Positions 1-59,630 of a DNA stretch of 64,000 nucleotides are shown piece by piece; the stretch's first letter is position 1; each line of letters begins with the position of its first letter. The translations under genes and the position numbers were made by a program. Below the pieces are notes generated by a model. That model searched no databases and was not told the origin of the DNA. It saw only the letters and a list, made by a program, of their open reading frames with translations. Origin of the DNA: Escherichia coli phage Wa28; the sequence record LC788710.1; one strand, 5' to 3'.

Positions 1-25
1 TTTTTTTTTTTTTTTTTTTTTTTTT
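1..25. repeat. poly(dT) homopolymer tract, 25 nt, at window edge
   Basis: 25 consecutive T read directly; followed by stem AGAGG...CCTCT. Confidence 0.9.
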
Positions 26-45
26 GAGAGGGTGCAAAACGAACC

Positions 46-73
46 TCTTGCATTTTGCATTTTGCATTTTGCG
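46..73. repeat. tandem heptamer GCATTTT x3 plus GCGTTTT
   Basis: direct reading of gcattttgcattttgcattttgcgtttt. Confidence 0.8.
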
Positions 74-213
74 TTTTCATATTGTACATAAGAACAGCCT
101 AAGAATCAGCGAACTGTTAACATAGCAGAACACGCGTTGCGTTGCTAGGATAATCAATGTTCAGGCTTGTTTCGCAGCAATATTTTTCAGTGACAGATTG
201 CACTCCACTTATA

Positions 214-2829
214 TTACGGTAGTTCTGTAATTGTTGGAGCATTTCCGTTAAGCATTGATTTTACAAGGTTTTTCAGTTCATATAACTCATTGCGTAATAC
301 GTTAATTTCCTCCTGTTGATTATCAATCTTTGCTTTTTGCTCTTTGAATGCGTTAACAAGAAGTGCGACAACACCATTATAGTTAATGCCTTTGATTGCC
401 TCGCCTTTTGGGTCTAGCTGACCATCGTTATTCAAAGAATGAACCGCTTCCGGCAAAACCCTTTCAACATCTTGTGCGATCAATCCAGCCTCAATACTAT
501 AAACGCTGTTTTCATCTTCAATTAGATTGTTGCGCTTGTAGTAAGTATAACCAGTTAGATAATCAATTTTGTCGGATGCCGTTTCGATCTCTTTTAGATG
601 TGTTTTTAATCTAATGTCAGACCTGCTAACCCAATTTGATGCGCTACCATTTCCAGCACTATCAAAAATAAATTCAGCGCCCTTAACATAAAGATGTGTT
701 TCAGCGCCGCCAGAAGTCCACGGAACAACATCCATGCCAGCTACCCAAACTTTCCCCCAATAAACAGATTTAAATATGGCAACCGCAGAATCAAATCCAG
801 TGTGCTCAACAAGCAATCCAGACGCACGACTACGCCAGTCGGCAAATGAACCACCCTCAACTTGACCAGCAATAAGAGCGTTTGGATCACCGCGCCTAAC
901 TCCATTTACATACATACCCCTTGCGTTATCATCAACATAAGATGATATGACCCTGTAAGTGTTTATTCCTAATGGAGTCCATGCAAATATTCTCGCTGAA
1001 TCAGCAAACGCGCTTATGTGACCATCACGATCCCATTTAAGACCTGAATCATGATCCCCAATTGCTATAGAGTAATCACCAAGAGCCGATTGAGCATCCG
1101 GACTTAATAACATCAATTGCCTATCAGATCTTGCTATCCTGTACCATCCACCCCAAGAGCCAGCACTGCAAATGATACCCCATTTATTACCGTTCATTGC
1201 GGTTGCAACAATATTTCCATACTCAACATGACCGTTTGCATTTTTACCGTGAACATGCAATTCATACATCCACCAACCAGAGGCTTCAGGTGGTTGATAT
1301 GTAACAAGTTCTCCGCTTGAGTAATAACCGCTTTCTGCGTATGTTGACATAAACCCAAGAATGTTTGAATTATTAGGAATAATAATTGCTTGACCACCAA
1401 CAGGAGTATTTAAGTTCTTTCTTGCTCCAACTTCAGTATTAGATCCAGTGCCGCCAGCATCAATTGAAAGAGGAATCCATCTTCCAGTTTCATCAGTCCA
1501 AACACCCCACGCCGCATCAGGTCTAATTGTGATTCGATAAGGTGAGTTACTCCCTGGTGCATACATCATAGTTTCTGTTTCTGTTTGCTTTAAACGATCA
1601 ATGCCAAAGTTTATTTTTGCGCCCTCAACGTTTTCAGCACCAGTACCGCCAGCACCAATAGAAAGCGCAGATGTGCTGTTATTGTCATTACGCGCAACGC
1701 GCCATTCCCCATTGTTAGCGATCCGTAATTCATAAGTCCATGCAGGATTACGAAAAGAATTATAAGCGCCAGCATATTGATCTTTTACAGAATTAACAGC
1801 CTCAACTTTTAGCGCCTCCCTTGCAAGGTCTTTGTTTGCAAGATCATTAAGGTTCTGATCCTTCTTTAACGACGCTTGCATAACCTGTTCTGCTGATGCA
1901 GCCGCTGTCTCCGCTCTATCTGCTGCACTGGTGGCATTAGTAGCTTTCTCTCCTGCTATTGTAGCGCTACCAGCGGCCTCCAGGGCCTTGTCTGTTGCTG
2001 TCGTTGCAGCAGTAGTGGCGGTATTTTTAAATACCTCTGCTTCGTCTCTGTAGCCTTTGGTTGTGGTCATCGCTTGCGTAGCTGTATTCGCACTACCTGA
2101 TGCACTTTGCTGAGCTAGCTTAGCAGCGTCTTCACTAGCTTTTGAGTTAATTTCACTAGTCTTTGTATTAGTTTCTGAGTTTTTTGCTGCTAATGCTGAT
2201 GTGGAGGCTTGTGCAGCGAATGCTTCTGCTTCATCCCTGAATCCTTTGGAGTCAGAAGCAGAGGCAGCGGAATCAGCAGCATTAGTCTCACTAGTTTTTG
2301 CTGCTGCTGCATATGCTGCTGCATTAGTCTCACTAGTTTTTGCATTAGTCTCACTAGTTTTTGCATTAATCTCACTAGTTTTTGCTGCAGCTGATGATTC
2401 TATAGCAGTAGTTTCACTAATTTTTGCTGCAGCTGATGATTCTGCAGCTTTAGTAGCGGATGCAGCAGATTGAGAAGCAGAAATAGCAGACTGAGAAGCA
2501 GAAGCTTCAGAAGCTTCAGCAGAAATAGCAGATTCATTCTCAGAATTCTTAGCATTAAGTTCTGAAGTCTTAGCAGCTATCTCGGAGTCTTTTGCAGTAG
2601 TAGCGTATTCTCCCGCCTCTGTAGCAGAACCAGCAGCAGCAATAGCCTGATTGGTAGACTCAGTAGCAGAAGCAGCAGAGGCCTCAACAGCCCCTGTTAG
2701 TTCACTAGCAGTAATAGAACTAATAGAAGTACCTAAAACTACCGTATACTTAGGGTATTTACTAGCAGTAGTTGTAGTGTCATCTATGTTCAGAATCTGC
2801 TGTACAATAATTTTAGTTTTAAGTGCCAT
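214..2829 (-). CDS. ltf: L-shaped tail fiber protein (pb1-like) with Ala/Ser/Thr-rich repeat shaft and C-terminal intramolecular chaperone (S74-type autoprocessing) domain
   Basis: 871 aa ORF; repeated AKTSETN-like units; C-terminal SDIRLK motif followed by coiled-coil typical of self-cleaving fiber chaperone domains; position at end of tail module. Confidence 0.75.
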   Translation of the reverse strand: MALKTKIIVQQILNIDDTTTTASKYPKYTVVLGTSISSITASELTGAVEASAASATESTNQAIAAAGSATEAGEYATTAKDSEIAAKTSELNAKNSENESAISAEASEASASQSAISASQSAASATKAAESSAAAKISETTAIESSAAAKTSEINAKTSETNAKTSETNAAAYAAAAKTSETNAADSAASASDSKGFRDEAEAFAAQASTSALAAKNSETNTKTSEINSKASEDAAKLAQQSASGSANTATQAMTTTKGYRDEAEVFKNTATTAATTATDKALEAAGSATIAGEKATNATSAADRAETAAASAEQVMQASLKKDQNLNDLANKDLAREALKVEAVNSVKDQYAGAYNSFRNPAWTYELRIANNGEWRVARNDNNSTSALSIGAGGTGAENVEGAKINFGIDRLKQTETETMMYAPGSNSPYRITIRPDAAWGVWTDETGRWIPLSIDAGGTGSNTEVGARKNLNTPVGGQAIIIPNNSNILGFMSTYAESGYYSSGELVTYQPPEASGWWMYELHVHGKNANGHVEYGNIVATAMNGNKWGIICSAGSWGGWYRIARSDRQLMLLSPDAQSALGDYSIAIGDHDSGLKWDRDGHISAFADSARIFAWTPLGINTYRVISSYVDDNARGMYVNGVRRGDPNALIAGQVEGGSFADWRSRASGLLVEHTGFDSAVAIFKSVYWGKVWVAGMDVVPWTSGGAETHLYVKGAEFIFDSAGNGSASNWVSRSDIRLKTHLKEIETASDKIDYLTGYTYYKRNNLIEDENSVYSIEAGLIAQDVERVLPEAVHSLNNDGQLDPKGEAIKGINYNGVVALLVNAFKEQKAKIDNQQEEINVLRNELYELKNLVKSMLNGNAPTITELP
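2270..2440. repeat. tandem ~21-bp DNA repeats (gcattagtctcactagttttt x4 and gctgcagctgatgattct x2) inside tail fiber gene
   Basis: direct reading; units are in frame and encode the repeated ETNAKTS-type peptide. Confidence 0.8.
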
Positions 2830-3251
2830 TATTGAGTTACTCCATCGCTGATGTATACTTTACCTTCCATAATACGGAAAGAATTGACTTCAGAGCCAAT
2901 TACATCACGAGTCATTAGGATATCATAATAACCAGCAAAACGTTGTCTTGGGTTATACTTATCACGTTCTTTAGATGCTTTTTCACCAATATTAGTAGTG
3001 TCTGCAATGGAAAGACTAATTGCAGCAGCACCTTGAGCAGCATCAATAACATGAGTTTTAAAATTAGCTAGAACCTCGGCGTTCTCATCTAAACTAGATT
3101 TAATAGTTCCTCTGAGTGAATACCCTGTCAAGTTAACAGGAAATTCTGTTGGCGGATATACGCTATCATCAACATCCATAAATTGCATGATAAGACTATA
3201 AGGCACTTTCTCATCAACAACAATATCAATAACTCGGTTTTCTGTACTCAT
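2829..3251 (-). CDS. tail fiber-associated collar protein (p132-like)
   Basis: 140 aa ORF; stop overlaps ltf start (TAATG); synteny between pb4-like and ltf. Confidence 0.45.
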
Positions 3252-3256
3252 TATAA

Positions 3257-5314
3257 TTACCTTATATGGATATACCCACTATTTAGGTCTATCTTCATCT
3301 TGTAGTATGCTTCAGGGTTTCCTGATAACGCAGCATTTCTATCGTAGATTATATTAACACCTATTTGTGATAAGAAGGCATTTCCTGCCACAATCTTATC
3401 AGCAGTTACAGTTCCATTAACAATCATGTTGCCATGAAGAACCATTGCAGGGTTAATCCATCCAGCCCCGTTCCATTGACGGGTAAATGCTGTTTGTGGA
3501 GCATTACTGTTAAATTGTGTTAGAACATCGTATTTAACCGGAGGTTTTCCAAAGTTATTTTGAAAGAATGCGTTAGCTTGTCCATCATCCCAACCGCCTA
3601 ATCCAGGAATACCCATGGAGTACATCCCAGGACCACGCTGTCCATCATGTCCTATAGTACCTTCAGTACCACTCCATTGAACTACATCAGACCAGCTAGT
3701 ACCTTCAAGAAGTTTGTTAGTAACTGGATCAAGTGTACCTGTAGTCGCATAGATATTTTGTGTCATATCTGTACGATTAGGTGGAGTTTTTGACCAACCA
3801 GGAGGTGGATAATCTTGTTCTAACGGTTTGGCCGGTAAAGATGTTGCTAACTTATAAACAAATACTGTTTGCTTACCTTGTAAACCAGTTCCAATATCTA
3901 CGTCACCATTTGGTGTTCCAATTACTACACCACTAGAAATACGCAGAGTAGTACCATCATAACGTATCCATTGTGTAGCATTACCAATGTCTAACTTAGC
4001 TTTGGCAGAGGTATTATCCATACCCATCCAAATACCAGAGTTATTATCTCCCCAAGATTTACCTTGAGTATAAATTGCTGGATTATCTTTACCAGATAAG
4101 TTAGTCATGATAAAGTTCGCAGCATTAATATCTCTAGTAATTACTTTACCATCGACGTTAACAACACGATTTATAGGGTCGAAAGAAATAGGTGCTTTTC
4201 CTTCTTCATCTAGCAGACCAATGTTAATAGCACCAGTAGCTGCATCAATTAAGAATGTCTGTCTCCAGATTTCTCCATCTTTCATACTACCCTTAATAAA
4301 GGCATAGTTAACATCAATACCAGTCTCATTGACAAAACTATTATCTAGAGGAGTATCTTCATTCAATATAAATGTTACAGGAGCTGATTCTGTTATATCT
4401 TGCTTATTTGGTCCCCAGGCAATTGATGAAACCTTAAAGGTATGTTCAACTTTCCATGGGAATGATATAATCGTTGCAGCTCTAGCAGCACCCACGTTTA
4501 TCTTTTGAGCTTTAGCCCATCCGGTTTTAGCGTATTCCTCGGAGTTTATATAAGTAACCAAGAACTCACGAACGTTAGCACCAGCACCACGTTCCCATTC
4601 CCACTCAATTCTAACATCATATCGTTCTTTACCATCAGCAATTCGTGCAGCTTTAAAAACAATATCGATAGGTGCAGTAGGTGGAACAAAGTTATAAGCT
4701 ACAGTTAGAATATTAGGAAACTCGTAGTATCCTGAAGAATCAACTGTAACACCATCAGGCATAGTTACTTGACCAGATATTCTGATCTTATAGTCTCCGA
4801 TAGGAACTCCACCAAATTTAATAGTAGAACCTAAAGCCCCAATATAATATTTAGTCCAAGGACTGTCTTCAGTGGCTGTACTTTTTAACTCAATAGTACA
4901 GTAACTTGCTTCACCAGTTGTTTCCACAACAACTATCGGTGCGCCCACCCCAACATCCGCAGGTTCTGACTCAGATCTTGCTGCGACAATTATTGGCTTC
5001 TCTTTTGTTTTAAAGTTAGTTTCATTAGAGAGGTTAATACCAATTTTTGCATTTAAAAGTTCTGAGTCAATAATCGAGTCATAAAAAGCTCCCTGAACCT
5101 GATAGGTAGTTGAGGGAGTTAAATTATTGATCATAACAAAGAAAGTGTCGATTCCAGTGAAATCTCTTCTATCCACTTCTTCGCCAAGTTTAAGCCAGAA
5201 TGATCTACCGATAACATCGTAGTCGGTATAGATAGAATGCTGGATATACGCCATCGTATACCCAGTCATAATACTATTTAAGACCATCTTGGCTGGTGCA
5301 TTATTCGAAATCAT
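3257..5314 (-). CDS. baseplate / tail tip protein (pb4-like)
   Basis: 685 aa ORF; synteny downstream of hub protein. Confidence 0.55.
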
Positions 5315-8164
5315 TTAAATAGATGCCCAATCCACAGATTGCTCGCCATTATCACCTTCTGCTCTTATACGGAAGCGTAACTTCCTATTAATACCCAGAG
5401 CATCCTCATTATGAAGAGCATAGTCTGCCTTATTGTATATCAGTAGATAATCGTAGACATACTGATCTTCAATTCGTACACTTCTTAATAAACGATCTAG
5501 GTTATCGTAGATTTCGAGAGTGTAGAAGATTCCATCAATGATATCTTCTTCTGGAATTCTATCCCAGGCCAATTTAACGTCTGGTCCTACAAACTCCGAA
5601 GCATCTCCTGAAGCTGTATTAGTAACCCTGAAGTTACTAACGACGCTTAAGTTTTTAGCAGAGTTAAGTTCTACCGATAGTGTTACAGGAGAACTTCGTC
5701 TACCATTAATATCTACAGCTCTAATCTCAAAGACTGCTAAACCAGCAGGTTCTCCAATAATTTCTTGGATCATTCGTAGATTTGGATTAGTTTCTAGTTG
5801 CTGTACTATATAAGGATCAGCATGCCCAGAGTGAACGATGGAGTAATAAACAACGTTATTAGTTAAGCTAGGAAGCCAAGATAGCTCACCATTCTTACCA
5901 ATAGATCCTACTTGTCCACCCGGTGTTGGTGTATACATAAAGTCTCTAGGAGGCAGTACGTTATTACTAACATCAGGGATATCGTTACCACTATTATCAA
6001 CCTGCTCGGAGTTAATGAATACATCCTCACCGTACTCTTGCAGTGTAATATTAATCTTACCTTCTCTAGAGTTTTCAACTTCATCAACTAGGAAGTATTT
6101 CTTGTCCCAACCATAACGACCGTATGTAAAAGCAATCGGATCGTTAGGCTCAATGCCTATGAAATGATATGGTAATGAGAATGTGAGAGTTCGTGAGTAA
6201 CGAGACTTTTTCAGTTCTCTATCTGCAAAGCTACGCGCAGTATAGTAGTTAGTGATGTTTGCAAAAGAAAGCTGAAGTTTTTTATCTAACCCTTTATCTT
6301 GCTCCTTAAATATAGAGTTAAAGAATGTAATGGAGTTAGTTTTCCAGCTTAATGCGGGATCTAATATAGAGGCCTGTACTGAGTTAAACTTATTTCTACC
6401 AGTAGTATCTGATAGCTCCAGATCACCATAGGTATCTAAGAAGTCAATCTCCAGTGGAGTATTCGAGAACTTCTCAACAGTTATTCTATACTGACCAGAT
6501 AAGTTGTTGATAGCACCTCCATAAGACTCTATTAATCCCTGCACGTTTTTAAATACTGACTCAGAGGTATCGAGAATAGTATTCATTTGAACTATTTGTC
6601 TATTCTCTCCTACAGCATCAGTCCATCCAACATATCTCCAGTAGGGTTGCCAAGAAACCTGATAGGATTCATCAATGATATCCAGGATAGCTGCTTCTTG
6701 AATAAGTTGCTGGAGAGGGAACTGATCAATAGTAATATTAGCACCGTAGCGGTCAGAGGTTAGGTAGTCCAGAGTTTGCCAGATACCATTTAAGCTAGTC
6801 TTATCAGCAGTTACTCTACCATCTGAATGATAGATCTTAATCTTCTTACCTTGAACTTCAGCGCTAACTTCTGGAATTTCTGTTCTGTTTTCATTAATAG
6901 TAAAGCGAACAATAGCATAAGCAGTATCTAACAGTTTATAACGAGAGTCCCAGTATTCCGGTCCATTCTCATTCATGTTCTGTAGATAGAAACCTTTCTC
7001 TTTTGCAATGTTAACTAGAACATCAGCAGCAGATTGATCAGCCTTACCATGATAAGTCCAGATACGGATATCGCCATTACCATCATTATACTTATATTCC
7101 TGTCCATGAACAGAAGGTTCAGAGCTTGGTTGACCAGAAGCAATACGTTTCATGGTATCACCAGCTACTTTCTTAGTACCAAAGCAAGTACGAGACTTAC
7201 TATCATTAGGATCAATACAGATCATTGGTACATCACCAAAGTAAAAATCTAGGAACCCATCAATCTCACCTTCACAGAAAGCGTATACTATATATACGAT
7301 ATTAGGATTATGCAGTTCAGTATCTGCAAATACTGGGATTCCAGGAATTTTCTGAACTCCATATACTACTGGCAGGAATTTAGCAGCTAAGTTAAAATCA
7401 AGATCTACTTCCTTAGTTACAGTCTCATAATATTTCTTTAGACTATAGCTTCTAGAAAGACCAAATAATTTTTTCTTAGATTGTAACTTATAACGTTCTT
7501 CCTGAACCTGATACTTAGCAAGAATAGAGATACTCTTGTTAGCGTGGAAGAACCCGTAGTCTTCTTGATATTCAGGTCGCTTAGCACCATTAGACGGAAC
7601 TAATTGGCCGGCAACAATCTCAAGCCCTCTATGGTCAGCATCATCTGTGAAACGTCCATTTACTCTATCAAAGTCATAGAATTGGTTTGAACAGTTCCAT
7701 GTAATAACGGATGTACTAACTCCAGAAGTACCAATGTTATCCTTAATACCACCACCAGTAATTTTACCACGGAAGTAAAGTAAAGGACCATTAGTGTCTG
7801 GATCTACAGGAAGAATATTACCTTCTTCATCAATAACCGCTTGATGGATTGAAATAGATCTATCTAGGAAGGATACACCATTTTGGACTAGTTTTAATAC
7901 TTCATCCTCAGCAGTACCTGTGATAGTAAAAGAAAGGCTACCAATGGAAAGTTTTCTATTTTGTTTATGTGTTGTTATAGACTTAACTTTACCGGATGTG
8001 TAAAGAATACCATTATAAATTACATCCCTAAAATAGTCTGTAAGATAAATGTACGCAGAACTTGATCCGGTAGAGCTTGGCAATTCAAGAGTAATAAGGC
8101 ATGCAGTTTTTATTTTATTATTGGTTCTTAAATACTCTCTTGCACTGTCAAGAATTTTCTTCAT
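5315..8164 (-). CDS. baseplate hub protein (pb3-like)
   Basis: 949 aa ORF immediately after distal tail protein; size and position as recalled for T5 pb3. Confidence 0.6.
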   Translation of the reverse strand: MKKILDSAREYLRTNNKIKTACLITLELPSSTGSSSAYIYLTDYFRDVIYNGILYTSGKVKSITTHKQNRKLSIGSLSFTITGTAEDEVLKLVQNGVSFLDRSISIHQAVIDEEGNILPVDPDTNGPLLYFRGKITGGGIKDNIGTSGVSTSVITWNCSNQFYDFDRVNGRFTDDADHRGLEIVAGQLVPSNGAKRPEYQEDYGFFHANKSISILAKYQVQEERYKLQSKKKLFGLSRSYSLKKYYETVTKEVDLDFNLAAKFLPVVYGVQKIPGIPVFADTELHNPNIVYIVYAFCEGEIDGFLDFYFGDVPMICIDPNDSKSRTCFGTKKVAGDTMKRIASGQPSSEPSVHGQEYKYNDGNGDIRIWTYHGKADQSAADVLVNIAKEKGFYLQNMNENGPEYWDSRYKLLDTAYAIVRFTINENRTEIPEVSAEVQGKKIKIYHSDGRVTADKTSLNGIWQTLDYLTSDRYGANITIDQFPLQQLIQEAAILDIIDESYQVSWQPYWRYVGWTDAVGENRQIVQMNTILDTSESVFKNVQGLIESYGGAINNLSGQYRITVEKFSNTPLEIDFLDTYGDLELSDTTGRNKFNSVQASILDPALSWKTNSITFFNSIFKEQDKGLDKKLQLSFANITNYYTARSFADRELKKSRYSRTLTFSLPYHFIGIEPNDPIAFTYGRYGWDKKYFLVDEVENSREGKINITLQEYGEDVFINSEQVDNSGNDIPDVSNNVLPPRDFMYTPTPGGQVGSIGKNGELSWLPSLTNNVVYYSIVHSGHADPYIVQQLETNPNLRMIQEIIGEPAGLAVFEIRAVDINGRRSSPVTLSVELNSAKNLSVVSNFRVTNTASGDASEFVGPDVKLAWDRIPEEDIIDGIFYTLEIYDNLDRLLRSVRIEDQYVYDYLLIYNKADYALHNEDALGINRKLRFRIRAEGDNGEQSVDWASI

Positions 8165-8883: not shown

Positions 8884-11800
8884 TTAAGAATTACCAAGTG
8901 ATTTCAGGGTGGTTCCATTCTCATTAAGAGCCTGTTCTACGGCATCCCTGAAAGCAGCACTGTTGCTCGAAGCAAAGTCTCGGAAGCTAGCCGCATCCAT
9001 CGTACTGATGTTCAGCACAATAGGTCTACCCGATGTACCCTTTGAAGATCCTTTGAGTTCATCAGTAGGAGTAGCCTTCATCGGAACCATAGGAGTGATT
9101 ACTTCGGTACCATGCTCACCCATCTGGTAACTAACTCCAGGATACATATTACCACCTTCTGCACGAGGTACGAAAGAGTTAGCATTACCAATCCCTTGAT
9201 CCCCTCGAATATAAGAAAGTTCTCCTGCGTTAGCCGACATAGAAACGTCTACGTTCTTCTGGCGCTCTCCAAGAGTTAAGTAACCAGCTGTCTCAGCACC
9301 AGAGTCCCCAATAGAAGACATACCAGATGCAGAGGATGCTTGAGCAAGAGCCATAGCACCTGCTAAACCAGCCGCAACCATCAGAGGAATAGAAAATGGG
9401 TATGGAACAGCTGTTGCTGCTTGCATCACCGCTACTGCCGTCTGGATAATGATTTGCTTCTTAGCTGCATCTTGCTGGATCTTGAGCTTTTCAGCCTCTA
9501 ACTTCTTGATCTTAGCTTTGGATTGCTCAGATTTACCATCACGTTTCTGTTCTGCTGCAATAGCTGCATCAATAGCACTTACCTGTTGACCAACACTATA
9601 CTGAATCATTGAAGACACAGTTTGCATACCAGCAGCAACTAAAGATGTAGTATCCAGAGATCCCTGAGAGAACTGAATCATAGCATTAGTTAGGTTACCC
9701 ATACTTTGTGCCACTGCAGTTGCTTCAGAGTTCAGCTCGGATAGTTTAGAGATAGCCTGGTCATAGGATGCCATTCTATTCTGCATATCCGCGAAAGCTT
9801 TGTCATCTCCAGATAGTCCAGTTGTAGGTGTATATGTAGCTCCTACAGATGAACCTACTTGTTGTTGCATTTGAGCATTTCTTTGGGCTGCTAATGCGGA
9901 CATTTGTGCTTGAGTTTTTGATATCTCAGAATTCCATCGCATCTGTTCATCCGCATTACCTTTAGTAAACTCTTTCATTTGTTTATAGAATTCTAACTGC
10001 ATTTCCATCTTTTGCATTTCCCCTGCTAGAGGGTACATGCCAGTTAATGTATTCTCAAATGCTTCCTGTCTTTTTGCTGCAACTCTGGATATATTATCTA
10101 ACCTAGCTTTCCAGATTTCACGCTCAATCTGTGCCTGAGCACGTCTTGATTGTTCAGCTTCCTTCTGCTTATCAATCTGCTTGGAGTACCACACATACTT
10201 CTCTTTCTCGATAGTCAGTTCAAGGTTCAACTGAGCTAAACGATATTGAGTATCTGTCATAGTACGGTTATTCAGGAGAGCTATTTCACGATCAACACCA
10301 AGAATCTTATCCGTATAGTCCTTAACTTTCTTCTGAGCTTCCATGTCCTGGTTAGTAATTTTTATACGTTCTAACTGAACCTTAGCTATTTCATTCTCAA
10401 TTGCCTTGTTACCCTTGTTAGTTTCTAGGACACGCTTAAGAGCTGCTTCCTGTTCTTCTAACTGTTGGATTTCTAGACGTCTACCCGCTTCCTGTGCTTT
10501 CTCTTTATCCTTGGTCTGGTTGTACACTTCGGCAATCTTCTGCTGAACTTCTAACTGATTCTTAGTCTCATTACCAGTTAATTTTACGTAACCAGCAAGA
10601 GCTTGTGAAGCAGTCTTCATCTCACTAAGAGTATTATACCCTAAGTTCAGGCTCTTAACATACTCATCAGCATTTTTACCAGTACCCGCAGAAAGAGACT
10701 CAATAGTCTTAATCGTATCTGATAGGGATGCACTAGTTTTAGCCGCAGTATTAGTATTCTGAGCGATGTTCTGGATATCGTTAGCTAAGTCACTGGCAGT
10801 TTTCTTAGCTTGGTCATACGCTTTCTGCTGTTCTGTCAATCCTTTCAGAGTTGCAGAGTTAAAGTCATAAACCGCATCCGGGTCATTTGCATCTTTCTGT
10901 AGGTTAATTTGCTTCTGGAATGCTGTATTAGATTTGGCTGCGGCAGCACCAGCAGCTTGGTATGCCGATTTCCATGCATTAAGATTGCCAGTTGAATCCT
11001 CTACTTCCTTATCAAGACGCTCTACCTGGAGAGCTAATGCAGCAGTATCTGCAATGAATTTCTGGTTTTCTTCAGAAGATCCTATGCGAACTCCTCCTAC
11101 TTCAAAACCTCCTGCAGCTAACCCTACCGGTGCACCTTGAGCAACTAAACGAATAGCCCCTGCTGTAGATGCATCTGCTTGCTGCATACGCTTGTCTAGA
11201 TCAGCTTTTAACTTATTACGCTTTTCTAGAGATTCTTTGTACATATCAAGAGCTTTATTATATCCTTCCTCAGAAGCGGAAAGACTTAAAGCTACAGCAC
11301 CAACGTTAGCTGGGTCAATCTGGCGGTTAGTTTCTTCCTGTGCTCTAGCAGCAGAGGCCGAGATAGATGCTTGAGAAGTATAGAACACTGCGTTGATAGA
11401 ATCAATTACTGGCCCTAAATACTTAGCAGCAGCCTGTTGAACCTTTCTCAGTGCAGCATCAGCATTAGCAGCAAACTGTTCCCAGGGGGTTGCACGAAGT
11501 ACATCATCAAGATAGCCGAAACGTTTAGTAGATTCAGCGATAACTGCGTTAGCATATGCTTGTTGCTTCTGGAAAGTAGAGAGACTATTAACGTTATATG
11601 TAATACCTGTGTTAGCAGCATTTAACTGTTTAACGTAGTCTGCGTAAGCATCGTTAAGACGAATAGTAACACCAAGTTCGTCCAGAAGTTCGATTTCTTG
11701 TTTAGATACACCCTTGATTACACGGTTAAGTGCATCAGTCATATCAACACCAAGAACAGCAGCAGCACGACGAGCTACTAGACCAAATTTATTAAGTTGT

Positions 11801-12594
11801 TCAGCATCGAATCCATATGCAGAAGCAGAGGATGCCTGTCTCATTGCTTCTTCGAAGGAGATTGCATAACCAGCAGCCTCTTGTAGAGATCTAGCTAGAG
11901 TTTGTACAGGAGTACCTGTTTGAGTACCAACAATAGTACCAAACTTCTCAAGACGGTTTAACTGGTCACCCATCTTAAGCTGTTCGAATGCAGATTGTAG
12001 AACGAACACGTTAGACGCGATAGCAGCATACATAAGAGGTAAACTACCACCCACTTTAGCCATTGCTGCGAAGTCACGAGTAGCACCACGTGCTGAACCA
12101 GAAGTATTACCAATTGCACGACTAGCACGTCCTGCGGAGGTAGTTGTATCGTTAAAGCCTCTAGCAGTATTGCCTAGTGCTCGGTTAGTATCATATAATC
12201 TATCTTGAACTTTTTCGGTTGCAGCAGCTACATCATTACCCATAGCCTTAACAGATTTACCCACATGTGTAAATCCAGACTCTAGCTTCTCAGATACTTC
12301 GATCATAGCAAGGGCAAGATCATCTAGCTTATCACCAATACCTTCAATGGATTTAGTGATACCAGCCATACCTCTACTAGCCTGCATTTTAGTTAGACTT
12401 TTAGCTGCTCTATCCGCCGCCCTCTCAATGGAGTAAAGAGTTTTGGGCATTTTTCCTAACTGCTCATTAGTCAGTTCGGAAGCGGCAGCAGCATTTTCTA
12501 ACGCATCGGAAACGTTCTCAATAGATTTTGCAGTACGGGTTGCCCCTTTCTGCTTTACATCTATAAGTAGTTCTCGTATTAGCTTATCAGTCAT
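8884..12594 (-). CDS. tail tape measure protein (pb2-like)
   Basis: 1236 aa, long coiled-coil-rich Ala/Gln/Glu/Lys central region, hydrophobic C-terminal segment; largest ORF in tail module. Confidence 0.85.
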   Translation of the reverse strand: MTDKLIRELLIDVKQKGATRTAKSIENVSDALENAAAASELTNEQLGKMPKTLYSIERAADRAAKSLTKMQASRGMAGITKSIEGIGDKLDDLALAMIEVSEKLESGFTHVGKSVKAMGNDVAAATEKVQDRLYDTNRALGNTARGFNDTTTSAGRASRAIGNTSGSARGATRDFAAMAKVGGSLPLMYAAIASNVFVLQSAFEQLKMGDQLNRLEKFGTIVGTQTGTPVQTLARSLQEAAGYAISFEEAMRQASSASAYGFDAEQLNKFGLVARRAAAVLGVDMTDALNRVIKGVSKQEIELLDELGVTIRLNDAYADYVKQLNAANTGITYNVNSLSTFQKQQAYANAVIAESTKRFGYLDDVLRATPWEQFAANADAALRKVQQAAAKYLGPVIDSINAVFYTSQASISASAARAQEETNRQIDPANVGAVALSLSASEEGYNKALDMYKESLEKRNKLKADLDKRMQQADASTAGAIRLVAQGAPVGLAAGGFEVGGVRIGSSEENQKFIADTAALALQVERLDKEVEDSTGNLNAWKSAYQAAGAAAAKSNTAFQKQINLQKDANDPDAVYDFNSATLKGLTEQQKAYDQAKKTASDLANDIQNIAQNTNTAAKTSASLSDTIKTIESLSAGTGKNADEYVKSLNLGYNTLSEMKTASQALAGYVKLTGNETKNQLEVQQKIAEVYNQTKDKEKAQEAGRRLEIQQLEEQEAALKRVLETNKGNKAIENEIAKVQLERIKITNQDMEAQKKVKDYTDKILGVDREIALLNNRTMTDTQYRLAQLNLELTIEKEKYVWYSKQIDKQKEAEQSRRAQAQIEREIWKARLDNISRVAAKRQEAFENTLTGMYPLAGEMQKMEMQLEFYKQMKEFTKGNADEQMRWNSEISKTQAQMSALAAQRNAQMQQQVGSSVGATYTPTTGLSGDDKAFADMQNRMASYDQAISKLSELNSEATAVAQSMGNLTNAMIQFSQGSLDTTSLVAAGMQTVSSMIQYSVGQQVSAIDAAIAAEQKRDGKSEQSKAKIKKLEAEKLKIQQDAAKKQIIIQTAVAVMQAATAVPYPFSIPLMVAAGLAGAMALAQASSASGMSSIGDSGAETAGYLTLGERQKNVDVSMSANAGELSYIRGDQGIGNANSFVPRAEGGNMYPGVSYQMGEHGTEVITPMVPMKATPTDELKGSSKGTSGRPIVLNISTMDAASFRDFASSNSAAFRDAVEQALNENGTTLKSLGNS

Positions 12595-55881: not shown

Positions 55882-55957
55882 TGGTAGTTAGTAGTGGATT
55901 TGAACCACTGTAGTCGCTCCGTATGAAGGAGGTGCATAACCACTCTGCCAACTAACT
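55882..55957 (-). tRNA. tRNA-Met/Ile2 (anticodon CAT)
   Basis: hand-folded cloverleaf; T-loop TTCAAAT; anticodon loop TTCATAC; CCA encoded. Confidence 0.6.
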
Positions 55958-55963
55958 ATAATT

Positions 55964-56039
55964 TGGTACTCCGACTTGGGATCGAACCAAGATTTGACGA
56001 TTATCGGTCGCCTGTTCTAACCGTTTGAACTATCGGAGC
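55964..56039 (-). tRNA. tRNA-Ile (anticodon GAT)
   Basis: cloverleaf; anticodon loop CCGATAA (C at position 33). Confidence 0.55.
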
Positions 56040-56040
56040 A

Positions 56041-56334
56041 TTACATCATTTCGTCTAAGTAAGAAGTATACTGGTATTTAGCTTCTCCAGTTTTATCTAC
56101 TTCGACTTCTGTTCTAGGTACTTTTCGTACCAGACCGTGAATCATCTTGTACTGAATAGACTTAGATGGTTCGTGATCTTTTGGAAATACTTGTTTAACC
56201 GTTACTACTTTGAAGCCTTCACGAGGTGTTAGCACAACAACTTGATCACCTTCTTTTATTTTCCAAGACTCAGGAAATTCGTAAGTGTAGCGTTGACCAC
56301 CCGTTTGGAACACGACAGAAAGATAACGTTTCAT
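56041..56334 (-). CDS. hypothetical protein
   Basis: 97 aa; promoter upstream. Confidence 0.4.
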   Translation of the reverse strand: MKRYLSVVFQTGGQRYTYEFPESWKIKEGDQVVVLTPREGFKVVTVKQVFPKDHEPSKSIQYKMIHGLVRKVPRTEVEVDKTGEAKYQYTSYLDEMM

Positions 56335-56363
56335 TTGGTTTCCCTCTCATTAATTTATGTAAA

Positions 56364-56392
56364 TATTATAACAAGAAATAAGAGAGAAGGCA
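56364..56392 (-). promoter_or_regulatory. T5-type sigma70 promoter (TTGCCT-17-TATAAT)
   Basis: conserved architecture. Confidence 0.55.
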
Positions 56393-56408
56393 AATGAATT
56401 TTTAAATT

Positions 56409-56483
56409 TGGTGCTCCCACCAGGAATCGAACCCGGTTCAGATGCTTACAAGGCAACTGCATCGCCAGCAATGCTTTAGGAGC
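56409..56483 (-). tRNA. tRNA-Thr (anticodon TGT)
   Basis: cloverleaf; anticodon loop CTTGTAA. Confidence 0.6.
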
Positions 56484-56650
56484 AATAAACCCGTTATTTC
56501 AACGGAATTTCTTTTTCAAATACAGGAGACTTATCAGACATTACTGTCATAGCCAACTGCTGTAGAAATTCGAATGAGAGTTTTAAACGTTCTTCACCCA
56601 ACTCAACCTCAACACACTTCATTTGCTTATCAACCTTTAGCTTTAGATTA

Positions 56651-56872
56651 TCAGCCCTCTTCGGGTTCTCTTTGCTCAGCTATTGCTAGCCAGTCTGGTA
56701 AAAGAAACTTAGTACGAAATTCTTCATATGTTTCTTCTGGATGAAAGCTATAGCCTTGCTTTTCATCATTTAATAAAACCGAACCGTCTTCCTGTTCATA
56801 AGCTCGGTATGTTTCACCAATAATTAAAACTCGTCTATTGGGGTTTTTATTACGAAACTCAAAAACGTCCAT
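56651..56872 (-). CDS. hypothetical protein
   Basis: 73 aa. Confidence 0.35.
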   Translation of the reverse strand: MDVFEFRNKNPNRRVLIIGETYRAYEQEDGSVLLNDEKQGYSFHPEETYEEFRTKFLLPDWLAIAEQREPEEG

Positions 56873-56887
56873 AACGTTTCCTTAAGT

Positions 56888-56962
56888 TGGTGCGGGATAC
56901 GAGAGTCGAACTCGTGTCTACTGGTTGGAAGCCAGTTATTCTAGCCACTGAACTAATCACGC
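56888..56962 (-). tRNA. tRNA-Gly (anticodon TCC)
   Basis: cloverleaf; anticodon loop CTTCCAA. Confidence 0.55.
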
Positions 56963-56968
56963 ATAAAT

Positions 56969-57044
56969 TGGCTGGAGAAGGAGGAATCGAACCTACCATT
57001 AACGGAGTCAAAGGCCGTTGTGCTAACCGTTACACTACTCTCCA
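56969..57044 (-). tRNA. tRNA-Gln (anticodon TTG)
   Basis: cloverleaf; anticodon loop CTTTGAC. Confidence 0.55.
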
Positions 57045-57050
57045 AGTATT

Positions 57051-57126
57051 TGGCTGGGATGCCACGGATCGAACGTGGAACCTTCGGAGTCAGAGGCCGA
57101 CGATCTGCCAATTGATCTACATCCCA
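57051..57126 (-). tRNA. tRNA-Gln (anticodon CTG)
   Basis: cloverleaf with perfect acceptor stem; anticodon loop CTCTGAC. Confidence 0.6.
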
Positions 57127-57133
57127 ATAATTT

Positions 57134-57334
57134 TTATTCTACAGGAACCGTGGCAATTGGATCTGGTTCTTCTAGACGTTTACCATTATGGTCAACACGA
57201 ATAATACCACAACCTTCACAGATTACAACAGCACCATAGCCTTCTTTAACTTCGGCTTCTGTAATCAGACCAGAAAGATCACCAGTATCTTTGCCCCACA
57301 TATCGATAGAGCATTCTTTGCAGAAATCAGCCAT
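57134..57334 (-). CDS. zinc-ribbon protein
   Basis: 66 aa; CKEC...CEGC. Confidence 0.35.
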   Translation of the reverse strand: MADFCKECSIDMWGKDTGDLSGLITEAEVKEGYGAVVICEGCGIIRVDHNGKRLEEPDPIATVPVE

Positions 57335-57358
57335 ATTTTAGTTCCTGTATAAGTTAAT

Positions 57359-57433
57359 TGGTGCATCCTCAGGGAATCGAACCCCGATCGTAAAGTTCGT
57401 AGCTTTACATTCTTTCCGTTGAAATAAGGACGC
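57359..57433 (-). tRNA. tRNA-Arg (anticodon ACG)
   Basis: cloverleaf; anticodon loop CTACGAA. Confidence 0.55.
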
Positions 57434-57438
57434 ATATT

Positions 57439-57515
57439 TGGGGTGGCTAGTGGAATTCGAATCCACATAGGCCTGATTCACAATCAGGATCATTAACCAA
57501 TTATGATATAGCCAC
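57439..57515 (-). tRNA. tRNA-His (anticodon GTG)
   Basis: cloverleaf; anticodon loop TTGTGAA; perfect acceptor. Confidence 0.65.
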
Positions 57516-57896
57516 AATTGAATACTATTAGGGGATGATCAGTCCTCCATTTGGCCGTCTAAGGTACCAAAGTTAGTCATTCTGCGCACAGGTTTTTCTC
57601 CTGATTCTTTATTGCGAATGCTCTCTAATAATACTCAATTGTGGCGGCTCTCCGAAACTCTTCTACTCTAGCCTTAGCAGCTTACTCCCGAACGCATGTC
57701 GGGAAAGTCTTACTAAGAACATCAAATAGCACCGTTACACTTTGAGCCATTAATGTATCAAGAAGCAGAAGGACTTGAACCTTCACGAGATAGACCATTT
57801 ATCTCAGCCTCGTTTTCGGGTATCTTATGAGGAGTGGATGTTCCCCTTACGCCCTTTAGGAAGCCCCGTCTACCGATTCCGGCATACTTCAAGATT

Positions 57897-57986
57897 TGGC
57901 AGAAGATAATGGAGTCGAACCATCACCGTATCACTACAGCGGGCCGGTTTTCAAGACCGGTTACGTACCACTACGTCCTATCTTCT
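57897..57986 (-). tRNA. tRNA-Ser (anticodon TGA), class II
   Basis: 90 nt; anticodon arm CCGGT-CTTGAAA-ACCGG; long variable arm. Confidence 0.6.
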
Positions 57987-58213
57987 AGTATTTGTTCTAC
58001 TTCTTTTCGAAGATCTTCTGGATTATCATGATAGGTTGTTTGCCATACATAAATAACTCCAGTATCACATGCTTTATCAAATATTTCTCGCTCAGGAAGT
58101 TTCATGCCCATTGCGTACTTGATATGAAACTCTAAAGCTTGCTTACTAGGGAATGTATGACGCAAGAAAAACTTATCATTAACTAAATCCAACATCATAA
58201 TCTTGACTTTCAT
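57971..58213 (-). CDS. hypothetical protein
   Basis: 80 aa; 3-prime end overlaps tRNA-Ser. Confidence 0.35.
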   Translation of the reverse strand: MKVKIMMLDLVNDKFFLRHTFPSKQALEFHIKYAMGMKLPEREIFDKACDTGVIYVWQTTYHDNPEDLRKEVEQILEDRT

Positions 58214-58233
58214 TTATATTCCCTATTAGTTGT

Positions 58234-58326
58234 TTGGCGGAAGAAGAGAGATTCGAACTCTCAAGCCTGCTTTAACAAGTCAGCCACTTTCCAAGCGGTT
58301 TTCGTCACCTAATCGATTTGCTCTTC
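58234..58326 (-). tRNA. tRNA-Ser (anticodon GGA), class II
   Basis: 93 nt; T-arm GAGAG-TTCGAAT-CTCTC; anticodon loop TTGGAAA; fold less certain. Confidence 0.45.
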
Positions 58327-58501
58327 CGTAGATCTCAGGATTAAATCATAAACTTCATTAGCAGATACTGGAAGTATGAGATTATACATCTTTTGGTCAT
58401 ACCTCTGACCATACTCTATAAACACATACTCTTTAGTTAATGTATTAACAGCTAACCAGATATCAGTTATAGGAGTTTTCATCATGAGTTAATCCAATGT
58501 T

Positions 58502-58582
58502 TGGTAGGGATGGAGGGACTCGAACCCACACCCGAAGACTAGAACCTAAATCTAGCGCGTCTGCCAATTTCGCCACATCCCC
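58502..58582 (-). tRNA. tRNA-Leu (anticodon TAG), class II
   Basis: 81 nt; anticodon arm CTAGA-TTTAGGT-TCTAG. Confidence 0.55.
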
Positions 58583-58589
58583 ATTTTAT

Positions 58590-58808
58590 TTAGTTAGAAA
58601 TAAATAGTAACCCTGCAACAATGGAACCTATGCCACTGAATACCATTATCAGCATAGCTTCTAAGCTGATAAAGCGGACGTTATATGGAGCGCCCCAAGA
58701 ATAATCAGTAAAGAAAGTTTTCTTTTCTTTAGCTAAATCTTTAATAGTTCTAAAATAGATAGCTAGTGCTAAAGCTACAAGAACTACAGAGGCTGCTAAG
58801 AATACCAT
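58590..58808 (-). CDS. small membrane protein
   Basis: 72 aa, two TM helices. Confidence 0.35.
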   Translation of the reverse strand: MVFLAASVVLVALALAIYFRTIKDLAKEKKTFFTDYSWGAPYNVRFISLEAMLIMVFSGIGSIVAGLLFISN

Positions 58809-58827
58809 ATTATTTCCTTAATTTGTT

Positions 58828-58903
58828 TGGTGGAGTCACTCAGAATTGAACTGAGTTCCACTGCTTGCAAGGCAGTAAGTTTAACCAAATAACCTATGAC
58901 CCC
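58828..58903 (-). tRNA. tRNA-Ala (anticodon TGC)
   Basis: cloverleaf; G3:U70 wobble; anticodon loop CTTGCAA. Confidence 0.65.
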
Positions 58904-58908
58904 GAATT

Positions 58909-58987
58909 TGGTGGAGAATAAGAGATTCGAACTCTTCTGATATCCTCGGTGCAAGCGAGGTGTCCACTCCAAGCAGACCCATTCCCC
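58909..58987 (-). tRNA. tRNA-Ala-like (anticodon TGC), atypical
   Basis: 79 nt; G3:U70; anticodon loop CTTGCAC; G8G9 and 7-nt variable loop are non-canonical. Confidence 0.45.
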
Positions 58988-58996
58988 AAAATCTTT

Positions 58997-59225
58997 AAGT
59001 TTACTAAGGCTATTAGCTCGGTGTGCGTATTACCCTCAGACATTAGCCAGTAGAGGATAACCGCTCTTCACAAACCCGATACACTATTCAGTTGCCGCTG
59101 AATCTAGTGGACTAATCTAGAACTTATTGCAAAGTATCCCCCGCCATTAAGGGTCTACTTGCAATTGTGCTTTTTGGCAGCCAGTCCTAGGTCGAGCTAA
59201 TACCTTAGTGAACTTTGATGAGGAT
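58997..59225 (-). ncRNA. candidate structured RNA (~230 nt) closed by a ~24-bp terminal helix
   Basis: 58997-59022 pairs with 59200-59225 (2 mismatches); no ORF; promoter at 59250-59278 fires into it; leader hairpin GATGAGGA-gaaa-TCCTCATC. Confidence 0.35.
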
Positions 59226-59249
59226 TTCTCCTCATCAATTTATATAAAT

Positions 59250-59278
59250 ATTATAACAAGAAATTAAGCATCAAGCAA
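59250..59278 (-). promoter_or_regulatory. T5-type sigma70 promoter (TTGCTT-17-TATAAT) driving structured RNA and downstream tRNAs
   Basis: conserved architecture; -35 overlaps stop of upstream ORF. Confidence 0.6.
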
Positions 59279-59630
59279 GTACATTTTTAGCGATTTCTTG
59301 TATTTCCTTAACGTCACTAACGAAAAGGTAATCAGAGCTTCCAGAGTGCATACTCTGCATAACCACACCATCCTCTGGTGCATCTTCTTTCAAAGTAATA
59401 CCTAACCAGAACTCGGCAAAACTAGGTGTTACCTCACCTTGACTTGCCTTGAATACATCGGCTTCTGTGATCTCCTGACCAGTAGAGAGTCCCATGTACG
59501 GTACGTTCAGATCAATATCTTTGTAAAACTCAGCTAGATCTTGTTCGAAGTCCCAACCTTTAGAGATAGCGAACTCCATTGTTACATGACCGAAATAGCC
59601 TTGAACCTTGCTTGATAATTGCATTTGCAA
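59271..59630 (-). CDS. hypothetical acidic protein
   Basis: 119 aa. Confidence 0.4.
   Translation of the reverse strand: MQMQLSSKVQGYFGHVTMEFAISKGWDFEQDLAEFYKDIDLNVPYMGLSTGQEITEADVFKASQGEVTPSFAEFWLGITLKEDAPEDGVVMQSMHSGSSDYLFVSDVKEIQEIAKNVLA

What the first reader, a model, noticed from the sequence alone, without database searches (positions are those of the whole stretch)
214..2829. Tail fiber gene with in-frame tandem DNA repeats and a self-cleaving chaperone domain
The 871-aa fiber has a long low-complexity Ala/Ser/Thr/Glu shaft encoded partly by perfect ~21-bp tandem repeats (2270-2440), a substrate for slipped-strand expansion or contraction that could vary fibre length. The C-terminus carries an SDIRLK motif followed by a coiled coil, typical of intramolecular chaperone domains that are autoproteolytically removed. 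The fiber is much shorter than the ~1400-aa T5 pb1 as I recall it.
Basis: partly seen in the sequence, partly recalled or inferred. Interest (0 to 1): 0.5.

Follow-up and report, generated by a model that had tools for sequence, protein, structure and literature searches.

The report
T5-like phage lateral tail fibre gene
This is the ordinary side tail fibre gene of a T5-like (EPS7-type) phage, with a repeat-built helical shaft whose length differs between isolates and a self-removing folding domain at its end; this isolate carries a 112-residue in-frame shortening of the shaft not found in any other collection searched.

Summary
ORF 214-2829 (-) encodes an 871-aa fibre identical to the NCBI entry [quoted passage not shown]. 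It sits downstream of the LtfC collar, pb4 and pb3 genes of an Epseptimavirus (T5-like phage).

- **Shaft:** aa 40-339 are Ala/Ser/Thr/Glu-rich, predicted alpha-helical and heptad-periodic.
- **Repeats:** the 21-bp unit GCAAAAACTAGTGAGACTAAT (AKTSETN) occurs three times perfectly and once with one mismatch. Only 49 bp (2320-2368) are a perfect tandem; the rest of 2276-2454 is degenerate.
- **Length polymorphism:** public relatives differ here by -84, -63, -42, -21 or +21 bp, so it is real, though most isolates share one copy number.
- **C-terminus:** aa 737-797 match Pfam Peptidase_S74 (E=2e-11). Ser737 and Lys742 align with the cleavage sites of T5 pb1 and S16 gp37. Predicted cut: Arg736|Ser737.

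New here: the closest relatives have 983 aa. This allele lacks A56-A167 (336 bp, 16 heptads), lost at a 6-bp microhomology. Its left breakpoint coincides with that of a ΔA56-A97 deletion reported in mouse-evolved phage φ37.

The kind is well known and interest is low.

The parts
214..2829 (-). ltf: lateral (L-shaped) tail fibre gene, 871 aa plus stop (stop codon at 214-216)
   Evidence: ORF. 100% identical to the NCBI protein of E. coli phage Wa28, and 99% identical to the 983-aa fibres of EPS7-like phages apart from one deletion.
2713..2829 (-). aa 1-39: N-terminal anchor that inserts into the LtfC collar ring
   Evidence: Residues 1-53 are nearly identical to DT57C LtfA, PDB 8hqz_d. The cryo-EM description places this segment in the LtfC groove (PMC10713586). 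These residues are almost invariant in alignment A2.
1813..2712 (-). aa 40-339: Ala/Ser/Thr/Glu-rich alpha-helical shaft, presumed three-helix coiled coil, with a short break at aa 193-200 (SKGFRDE)
   Evidence: AF2 predicts helices 41-192 and 201-339. The strongest hydrophobic periodicities are 3.5 and 7.0 residues. In DT57C LtfA the helix starts at T40 and forms a trimeric coiled coil.
2662..2670 (-). Junction of the isolate-specific in-frame deletion (ΔA56-A167 of the 983-aa form; 336 bp, 16 heptads). The 6-bp microhomology TCTGCT is at 2665-2670.
   Evidence: Protein and DNA alignments to faergetype and EPS7. All top public records match in two pieces with 336 extra bp. The junction 36-mer is absent from IMG/VR, JGI metagenomes and GTDB genomes, while the control for the undeleted junction was found.
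2276..2454 (-). 21-bp / 42-bp in-frame tandem repeat array encoding AKTSE(T/I)N heptads. Unit copies at 2365-2385, 2344-2364, 2323-2343 and 2281-2301; perfect tandem at 2320-2368.
   Evidence: TRF and exact-repeat scan. Copy number differs among relatives by multiples of 21 bp.
1405..1794 (-). aa 346-475: two small beta-rich mid-fibre domains, each ending in a GGTG...GA(R/K)xN motif. Likely specificity determinants.
   Evidence: AF2 predicts strands here with pLDDT about 55-88. Window aa 356-444 correspond to residues 468-556 of the 983-aa form, where φ37 host-range mutations accumulate. A cassette swap occurs here in P0028-P0031.
622..1404 (-). aa 476-736: distal beta-rich domain, the tip of the mature fibre
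   Evidence: aa 580-624 align to the S16 gp37 tip (6f45_A residues 20-64). In Foldseek the 6f45 chains are the only sensible hit. The region is shared at 70-89% identity with fibres on ~50-kb phage contigs.
604..621 (-). SDIRLK (aa 737-742): predicted autoproteolysis site, cut between Arg736 and Ser737, with a Ser737/Lys742 catalytic pair
   Evidence: Aligned to S16 VS^SDRRIK (PMC7917993) and to T5 NT^SDARLK (PMC4690869). S737, D738, R740 and K742 are invariant in 55 homologues.
217..621 (-). aa 737-871: intramolecular chaperone domain (Peptidase_S74), 135 aa and 15.2 kDa, with a C-terminal helix at aa 817-860 (window 250-381)
   Evidence: Pfam PF13884, E=2e-11, 44.5 bits against cut-off 22. 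phmmer to the 6f45_A chaperone region, stretch E=3.3e-13. The A1 profile also reaches the MYRF domain 7dc3_A. Helix prediction; masses.
2829..3251 (-). Upstream partner gene: LtfC/p132 collar protein (140 aa) that holds the fibre's N-terminus
   Evidence: Pfam PF23926 LtfC, E=2.8e-15. Relatives annotate it as 'collar tail protein for L-shaped tail fibre attachment'.

Best explanation
The gene encodes the lateral (L-shaped) tail fibre of an EPS7-like member of the T5 family.

**Predicted assembly and architecture**
- Three chains trimerise.
- Residues 1-39 thread into the LtfC collar at the tail tip.
- Residues 40-339 form a long alpha-helical, heptad-periodic shaft.
- Two small beta domains and a distal beta-rich domain (aa 346-736) carry host specificity. 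By analogy with relatives this is reversible binding to O-antigen, probably the Salmonella O:4,12 type.
- The last 135 residues are an intramolecular chaperone of the Peptidase_S74 type. It templates folding of the trimeric tip, then cuts itself off between Arg736 and Ser737 using Ser737 activated by Lys742. This leaves a 736-aa (76.8 kDa) mature fibre.

**Length variation**
- The shaft DNA is built from 21-bp-periodic, in-frame repeats. Replication slippage or recombination between them adds or removes whole heptads, so isolates differ in shaft length without breaking the coiled-coil register.
- This isolate lost 16 heptads (A56-A167 of the 983-aa form) through a 6-bp microhomology. That should shorten the shaft by roughly 17 nm.

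**Shown versus inferred**
- Shown here: gene, domains, motifs, repeat anatomy, polymorphism between isolates, and the deletion.
- Inferred: trimeric coiled coil, cleavage, O-antigen binding, and the mutational mechanism.
For: - **Identity and context:**
- **N-terminal homology:** DT57C LtfA and T5 pb1. The structural role comes from PMC10713586.
- **Helical shaft:**
- **S74 domain and catalytic residues:**. Mechanism from PMC4690869; S16 cleavage site from PMC7917993.
- **Heptad-unit polymorphism:** the shaft end (KKDQNL) lies at aa 322, 406, 413, 420, 427, 434 and 444 in close relatives. DNA spans of the 341-bp repeat query are 257, 278, 299, 341 and 362 bp.
- **Deletion:**
- **Repeat geometry:** 190 of 306 exact 8-mer pairs in the shaft lie at multiples of 21 bp.
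- **Function of relatives:** SuperGirl/Bas29, with the same fibre at 99% identity, is the only BASEL phage that plaques robustly on S. Typhimurium. The φ37 ltf determines O-antigen-dependent host range, and in mice it acquired ΔA56-A97. On the 983-aa reference that deletion is bounded by a 15-bp direct repeat and shares the left breakpoint of the deletion seen here.
Against: - No experimental data exist for this protein.
- The AF2 monomer of the C-terminal half is poor (mean pLDDT 57.8; the chaperone region is mostly below 50). Foldseek gave no hit at E<=1e-3, so the chaperone fold rests on sequence evidence only.
- BLASTP does not align the C-terminus to T5 pb1, and hhalign gives only E=0.032.
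- In at least 100 of 155 public records the repeat copy number is unchanged, so slippage is not frequent.
- That φ37 carries the same 983-aa allele is inferred from residue numbering, not from its sequence.
- The Ala743Thr change next to Lys742 is unique to this isolate; its effect is unknown.
Confidence: 0.85

Rival explanations
1. The 336-bp deletion is an assembly or sequencing artefact (collapse in low-complexity repeats), and the real phage has the 983-aa fibre.
For: The allele is unique. No other record in the phage collection, IMG/VR, JGI metagenomes or GTDB genomes has the junction. The region is repetitive.
Against: The breakpoints share only 6 bp, far below any assembler k-mer, so collapse is unlikely. 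The deletion is exactly in frame and the flanks match relatives at 99-100%. A similar deletion with the same left breakpoint was reported in evolved φ37.
Confidence: 0.08
2. The repeat array is a contingency locus: fibre length switches at high frequency within a population as a programmed host-range strategy.
For: Several copy-number alleles exist, all in multiples of 21 bp. Two different deletions use one breakpoint.
Against: Only 2.3 units are a perfect tandem. Most isolates from many sources have the same array at 99-100% identity. The φ37 host-range changes were mostly point mutations elsewhere in the gene. The 21-bp periodicity of the DNA alone explains why the indels are heptad multiples.
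Confidence: 0.1
3. The shortened fibre is a by-product of relaxed selection. The phage was propagated on a rough E. coli host where lateral fibres are dispensable, so the deletion is neutral or mildly damaging rather than adaptive.
For: The record is named an E. coli phage. Lateral fibres are not needed on K-12-type hosts (PMC8594841; PMC10713586). Four substitutions are unique to this isolate.
Against: The ORF is intact, the heptad register is kept, and the catalytic motif is conserved. Decay would more often give frameshifts, as in the EPS7 record.
Confidence: 0.25
4. The C-terminal S74-like domain is retained in the virion as a permanent trimerisation or tip domain and is not cleaved.
For: Cleavage was not tested. 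An Ala743Thr change sits next to Lys742. The model of this region is of low confidence.
Against: Ser, Asp, Arg and Lys of the S-D-x-R-x-K motif are invariant in 55 homologues and align with proven cleavage sites. In T5 the uncleaved domain blocks receptor binding.
Confidence: 0.06

Closest known systems
Lateral tail fibre (Ltf) of EPS7-like phages (Epseptimavirus: EPS7, SuperGirl/Bas29, faergetype, 3-29, and φ37 by inference)
   Same: 98-99% identical over all 871 aligned residues. Same neighbours (LtfC, pb4, pb3), the same repeat array and the same S74 domain.
   Different: This allele lacks A56-A167 (112 aa) of the shaft. It also has four private substitutions: S→L at aa 620, D→V at 694, I→V at 696 and A→T at 743.
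Phage T5 pb1 (L-shaped tail fibre, 1396 aa; PDB 4UW7/4UW8 as I recall, described in PMC4690869)
   Same: The N-terminal anchor and the start of the AKTSETN-type helical shaft are shared (48% identity over ~220 aa). Both have a C-terminal S74 chaperone with the S-D-x-R-L-K cleavage motif. The collar partner gene is the same.
   Different: The central and distal domains are unrelated by BLASTP. The protein is 525 aa shorter. T5 binds polymannose O-antigen, whereas relatives of this fibre infect Salmonella O:1,4[5],12.
DT57C LtfA (PDB 8hqz chain d)
   Same: The first ~53 residues are nearly identical, and the helix starting at T40 forms a three-helix coiled coil leaving the LtfC ring.
   Different: DT57C has a branched fibre made of LtfA plus LtfB. 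Here there is a single fibre gene with no LtfB-like gene downstream.
Salmonella phage S16 gp37 distal tip with its intramolecular chaperone (PDB 6F45)
   Same: Best solved-structure match for the C-terminus: aa 580-624 and aa 736-859. The proven S^S cleavage site aligns to R736|S737.
   Different: S16 is a T4-like myovirus, and removal of its chaperone exposes a docking site for a separate adhesin, gp38. No gp38-like gene follows this fibre.
Endosialidase / Peptidase_S74 intramolecular chaperones (K1F endoNF, PDB 3GW6 as cited in PMC4690869; eukaryotic MYRF, 7dc3)
   Same: Same Pfam family and catalytic Ser-Lys logic.
   Different: Here the domain is attached to a fibre tip and not to a tailspike enzyme or a transcription factor.

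Membership tests
Peptidase_S74 intramolecular chaperone (PF13884) | Match to the family HMM above the curated cut-off | tested here: met
   44.5 bits against cut-off 22, E=2e-11, aa 737-797 covering profile positions 1-58 of 58.
Peptidase_S74 intramolecular chaperone (PF13884) | Scissile/nucleophilic Ser at the domain start with Lys five residues downstream (S-D-x-R-x-K) | tested here: met
   S737...K742. These residues are invariant in 55 homologues. They align to S16 S^SDRRIK and to T5 T1263|S1264...K1269.
Peptidase_S74 intramolecular chaperone (PF13884) | C-terminal position, about 110-135 aa, ending in a long helix that forms the central trimeric coiled coil | tested here: met
   The domain is the last 135 aa. 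Predicted helix at aa 817-860 with pLDDT about 72-80.
Peptidase_S74 intramolecular chaperone (PF13884) | Three-dimensional fold like the K1F/T5 chaperone (tentacle hairpins, mixed alpha-beta domain) | tested here: inconclusive
   In the monomer AF2 model this region has pLDDT below 50. Foldseek against the PDB gave no hit at E<=1e-3.
Peptidase_S74 intramolecular chaperone (PF13884) | Autoproteolytic release after trimer folding | not testable with these tools
   Needs SDS-PAGE or mass spectrometry of virions, or a recombinant S737A mutant.
T5-type lateral (L-shaped) tail fibre (pb1 / Ltf / LtfA) | Conserved N-terminal anchor homologous to pb1/LtfA | tested here: met
   8hqz_d residues 1-104, stretch E=2.6e-25. 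T5 pb1 48% identity, E=5e-30.
T5-type lateral (L-shaped) tail fibre (pb1 / Ltf / LtfA) | Encoded next to the LtfC/p132 collar gene within the pb2-pb3-pb4 tail-tip module | tested here: met
   LtfC (PF23926) at 2829-3251 and the pb4 domains at 3257-5314. A 949-aa ORF at 5315-8164 and a 1236-aa ORF at 8884-12594 lie in the same order as T5 pb3 and the tape-measure pb2.
T5-type lateral (L-shaped) tail fibre (pb1 / Ltf / LtfA) | Trimeric alpha-helical coiled-coil shaft starting near residue 40 | tested here: met
   Monomer prediction is helical from aa 41, with 3.5/7-residue periodicity. The trimeric state is inferred from DT57C.
T5-type lateral (L-shaped) tail fibre (pb1 / Ltf / LtfA) | Reversible binding to O-antigen that speeds adsorption | not testable with these tools
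   Literature on relatives only.
Contingency (phase-variable) repeat locus | Long perfect tandem tract with high-frequency copy-number switching within a clone | tested here: not met
   Only 2.3 perfect units. Most isolates share the same copy number. Within-clone frequency was not measurable here.

The most novel reading that the evidence does not exclude
The start of the coiled-coil shaft (A55/A56) is a recurrent deletion hot spot, and shaft shortening is adaptive, not neutral. It would tune how far the fibre tip reaches relative to O-antigen length or to the central fibre. A natural isolate (ΔA56-A167) and a mouse-evolved φ37 (ΔA56-A97) would then have hit the same solution independently.
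Probability: 0.15. Interest if true: 0.5.

Novelty: already known. Interest (0 to 1): 0.22.

Why it matters
It matters little beyond bookkeeping. The fibre type, its collar attachment, its O-antigen role and its self-cleaving chaperone are all established for T5, DT57C, S16 and EPS7-like phages.

Two modest points are useful for people who engineer or compare T5-like phages:
- Shaft length in this family changes in whole heptads, because the DNA itself is 21-bp periodic. Fibre length is therefore a cheap evolutionary variable.
- This isolate carries a natural 16-heptad truncation that shares its left breakpoint with a deletion seen in experimental evolution. It is a ready-made allele for testing whether lateral-fibre length affects adsorption to smooth hosts.

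Tried and rejected
- **AF2 monomer of aa 320-871 with a 55-sequence alignment:** mean pLDDT 57.8 and pTM 0.30. This is too poor to judge the chaperone fold, as expected for an intertwined trimer.
- **Foldseek of that model against the PDB:** no hit at E<=1e-3. Only the S16 gp37 chains were sensible. No further fold searches were run on it.
- **BLASTP against T5 pb1:** it does not reach the C-terminal domain. hhalign finds the motif at only E=0.032.
- **The look-up of encoding contigs for the exact protein:** nothing on record.
- **Literature search for 'Wa28':** no relevant paper.
- **The search for related loci in IMG/VR:** only two loci, too few for a survey. The survey was done instead with protein clusters and megablast spans.
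- **Promoter/terminator scan of 1-3400:** nothing above shuffled expectation that bears on the gene.
- **Plus-strand ORFs inside the repeat region (2201-2473 and others):** considered and rejected as real genes. They are by-products of the low-complexity repeats.
- **A gp38-like adhesin or LtfB partner downstream:** considered and rejected. No ORF of 60 aa or more lies in window 1-213, and in relatives a non-coding spacer then convergent genes follow the fibre.
Full report
**What is there.** The minus strand of window 214-2829 carries one ATG-initiated ORF of 871 codons. Its start overlaps the stop of the upstream gene (TAATG).
- The upstream genes are an LtfC/p132 collar protein (PF23926, E=2.8e-15), a pb4 straight-fibre protein (four pb4 Pfam domains, E down to 5e-199), and a 949-aa ORF in the position of T5 pb3.
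- Megablast places the region in EPS7-like phages (genus Epseptimavirus, T5 family) at 99.2-99.8% identity.
- The protein is 100% identical to the NCBI entry 'tail fiber domain-containing protein [Escherichia coli phage Wa28]'.
- The rest of the window is a normal T5-like tail and head module with a 25-gene tRNA cluster.

**The observation.** The shaft (aa 40-339) is 30% Ala, 15% Ser, 12% Thr and 10% Glu.
- TRF finds a period-21 array at 2279-2385 (5.1 copies, 74% matches) and a period-42 array at 2276-2454.
- At base level the unit GCAAAAACTAGTGAGACTAAT (AKTSETN) is perfect at 2344-2364, 2323-2343 and 2281-2301. It has one mismatch at 2365-2385.
- The perfect tandem is 49 bp (2320-2368). A 21-bp AAAYAAA unit interrupts the array. 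'Perfect repeats across 2270-2440' is therefore overstated, but the repeats are real and far beyond chance.
- SDIRLK is aa 737-742 (window 604-621). T5 pb1 is 1396 aa.

**Domain anatomy.**
- *Anchor.* Residues 1-53 are almost identical to DT57C LtfA (8hqz_d). The first ~220 aa are 48% identical to T5 pb1, including its AKTSETN motifs. In the DT57C cryo-EM structure residues before T40 thread into the LtfC ring, and a long helix from T40 forms a three-helix coiled coil (PMC10713586).
- *Shaft.* An AF2 monomer of aa 1-340 is helical from 41 to 192 and from 201 to 339, with pLDDT 70-90 over aa 50-160. Hydrophobic residues show their strongest periodicities at 3.5 and 7.0 residues.
- *Mid-fibre and tip.* Downstream lie two small beta-rich domains that end in GGTG...GA(R/K)xN motifs (aa 346-475), then a distal beta-rich domain (aa 476-736). 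Residues 580-624 of the distal domain align to the tip of S16 gp37 (6f45_A).

**The C-terminal domain.**
- Pfam Peptidase_S74 matches aa 737-797 over the whole 58-position profile (44.5 bits, cut-off 22, E=2e-11).
- phmmer aligns aa 736-859 to the chaperone part of S16 gp37 (stretch E=3.3e-13). A profile of 55 homologues also reaches the MYRF domain 7dc3.
- Ser737, Asp738, Arg740 and Lys742 are invariant in those 55 homologues.
- S16 gp37 is cut at VS^SDRRIK (PMC7917993). T5 pb1 is cut at T1263^S1264, with Lys1269 activating the serine and S1264A blocking cleavage (PMC4690869).
- Both sites align to R736^S737...K742 here.
- The predicted products are a 76.8-kDa mature chain and a 15.2-kDa chaperone.
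- The fold itself could not be confirmed. The monomer model is poor in this region and Foldseek found nothing significant.

**Length polymorphism.**
- *Repeat array.* Among close relatives the end of the shaft (motif KKDQNL) lies at aa 434 in the common 983-aa form. It lies at 427, 420, 413, 406 and 444 in others. All differences are multiples of 7 aa, except one allele that has an extra heptad plus an ATN triplet. At DNA level a 341-bp query over the array spans 341 bp in most of 155 records. It spans 362 bp in MET_P1_137_112, 299 bp in phagemcphageface, 278 bp in Shivani and 257 bp in ZBSTP12.
- *Why heptad multiples.* The shaft DNA is itself 21-bp periodic: 190 of 306 exact 8-mer pairs lie at multiples of 21 bp, and all but two are in frame. 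Heptad-preserving indels therefore need no selection to explain them.

**The deletion in this isolate.**
- All nearest relatives carry 336 extra bp. Alignment shows that the window lacks A56-A167 of the 983-aa form, which is 112 aa or 16 heptads.
- The breakpoints share only TCTGCT. That argues against assembly collapse.
- The junction 36-mer is absent from the phage collection, IMG/VR, JGI metagenomes and GTDB genomes. The undeleted junction is found.
- The same mod-7 positions are hydrophobic in the deleted and retained segments, so the register is kept.
- A preprint on the Epseptimavirus φ37 reports that ltf acquired host-range point mutations at residues 468-556 during mouse infection, plus one deletion, ΔA56-A97 (10.1101/2023.11.08.566301).
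- On the 983-aa reference that segment is bounded by a 15-bp direct repeat. It shares the left breakpoint of the deletion seen here. I infer, but could not verify, that φ37 has this allele.

**Function.**
- Lateral fibres of T5-like phages bind O-antigen reversibly and are dispensable on rough hosts (PMC8594841; PMC10713586).
- SuperGirl (Bas29), with a 99% identical 983-aa fibre, is the only BASEL phage that plaques robustly on S. Typhimurium.
- φ37 infects O:1,4[5],12 Salmonella and is blocked by O-antigen glucosylation or shortening.
- The φ37 hot spot maps to window aa 356-444, in the mid-fibre beta domains. A natural cassette swap occurs in the same region in some relatives.

**Verdict.** The one addition is an allele-level feature: a unique 16-heptad shortening of the shaft at a breakpoint also used in experimental evolution. 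Whether that is adaptive, neutral or a consequence of propagation on a rough host is open. Interest is low.

Noticed in passing
window 1-25: A T homopolymer of at least 25 bases, cut by the window edge, lies downstream of the fibre gene. EPS7 has only T11 at the same place (L001 1501-1512). Alignments of relatives start at different offsets (query 1-22), so the run length differs between isolates.
   Followed up: partly
window 48-77: A 7-bp tandem repeat TTGCATT x4.3 lies in the spacer after the fibre gene and is annotated as repeat_region in phage faergetype. Some relatives (SB10, PSa2, fuchur) span 7 bp less over the whole region, which may be a copy-number difference.
   Followed up: no
window 217-1870 (aa 320-871); proteins P0037-P0058 and P0059-P0065: The C-terminal 50-80% of the fibre is 70-89% identical to fibres on ~50-kb contigs (Citrobacter phages Brooksby and Stevie, Salmonella phage KKP 3830; T1-like genome size). 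It is 45-60% identical to fibres with a different N-terminus (MWYREGTISF...) on 105-110-kb Salmonella contigs. The receptor-binding and chaperone module appears to be exchanged between phage families.
   Followed up: partly
window ~1441-1638 (aa ~398-463); proteins P0028-P0031: Some otherwise near-identical relatives carry a different mid-fibre cassette (ENVAQARINFQVNRFNQGDGETF... instead of ENVEGAKINFGIDRLKQTETETMM...). The swap starts inside the region where φ37 host-range mutations cluster and runs just beyond it.
   Followed up: partly
L001 2227-4650 (EPS7 RefSeq NC_010583): The type phage's fibre is annotated as 807 aa. A frameshift after VYWGK ends the ORF before the chaperone domain. 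This is either a sequencing error in an old record or a genuine pseudogene.
   Followed up: partly
window 970-972, 748-750, 742-744, 601-603: Four amino-acid changes are private to this isolate against 23 close 983-aa relatives: S→L (aa 620), D→V (aa 694), I→V (aa 696) and A→T (aa 743). The last is adjacent to the catalytic Lys742.
   Followed up: partly
NC_103481.1 (Salmonella phage vB STyj5-1), hit H97: The repeat region spans 342 bp instead of 341, and the fibre is annotated as two CDS. A one-base indel is likely in that record.
   Followed up: no
L005 955-1234 (SuperGirl bas29_0021 and bas29_0022; about window 1-242): Two tiny ORFs (34 and 41 aa) downstream of and overlapping the fibre gene's end are annotated 'tail fiber protein' in SuperGirl. 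They look like annotation artefacts.
   Followed up: no
window 55882-63965: A cluster of 25 tRNA genes lies on the minus strand, as is usual for T5-like phages.
   Followed up: no
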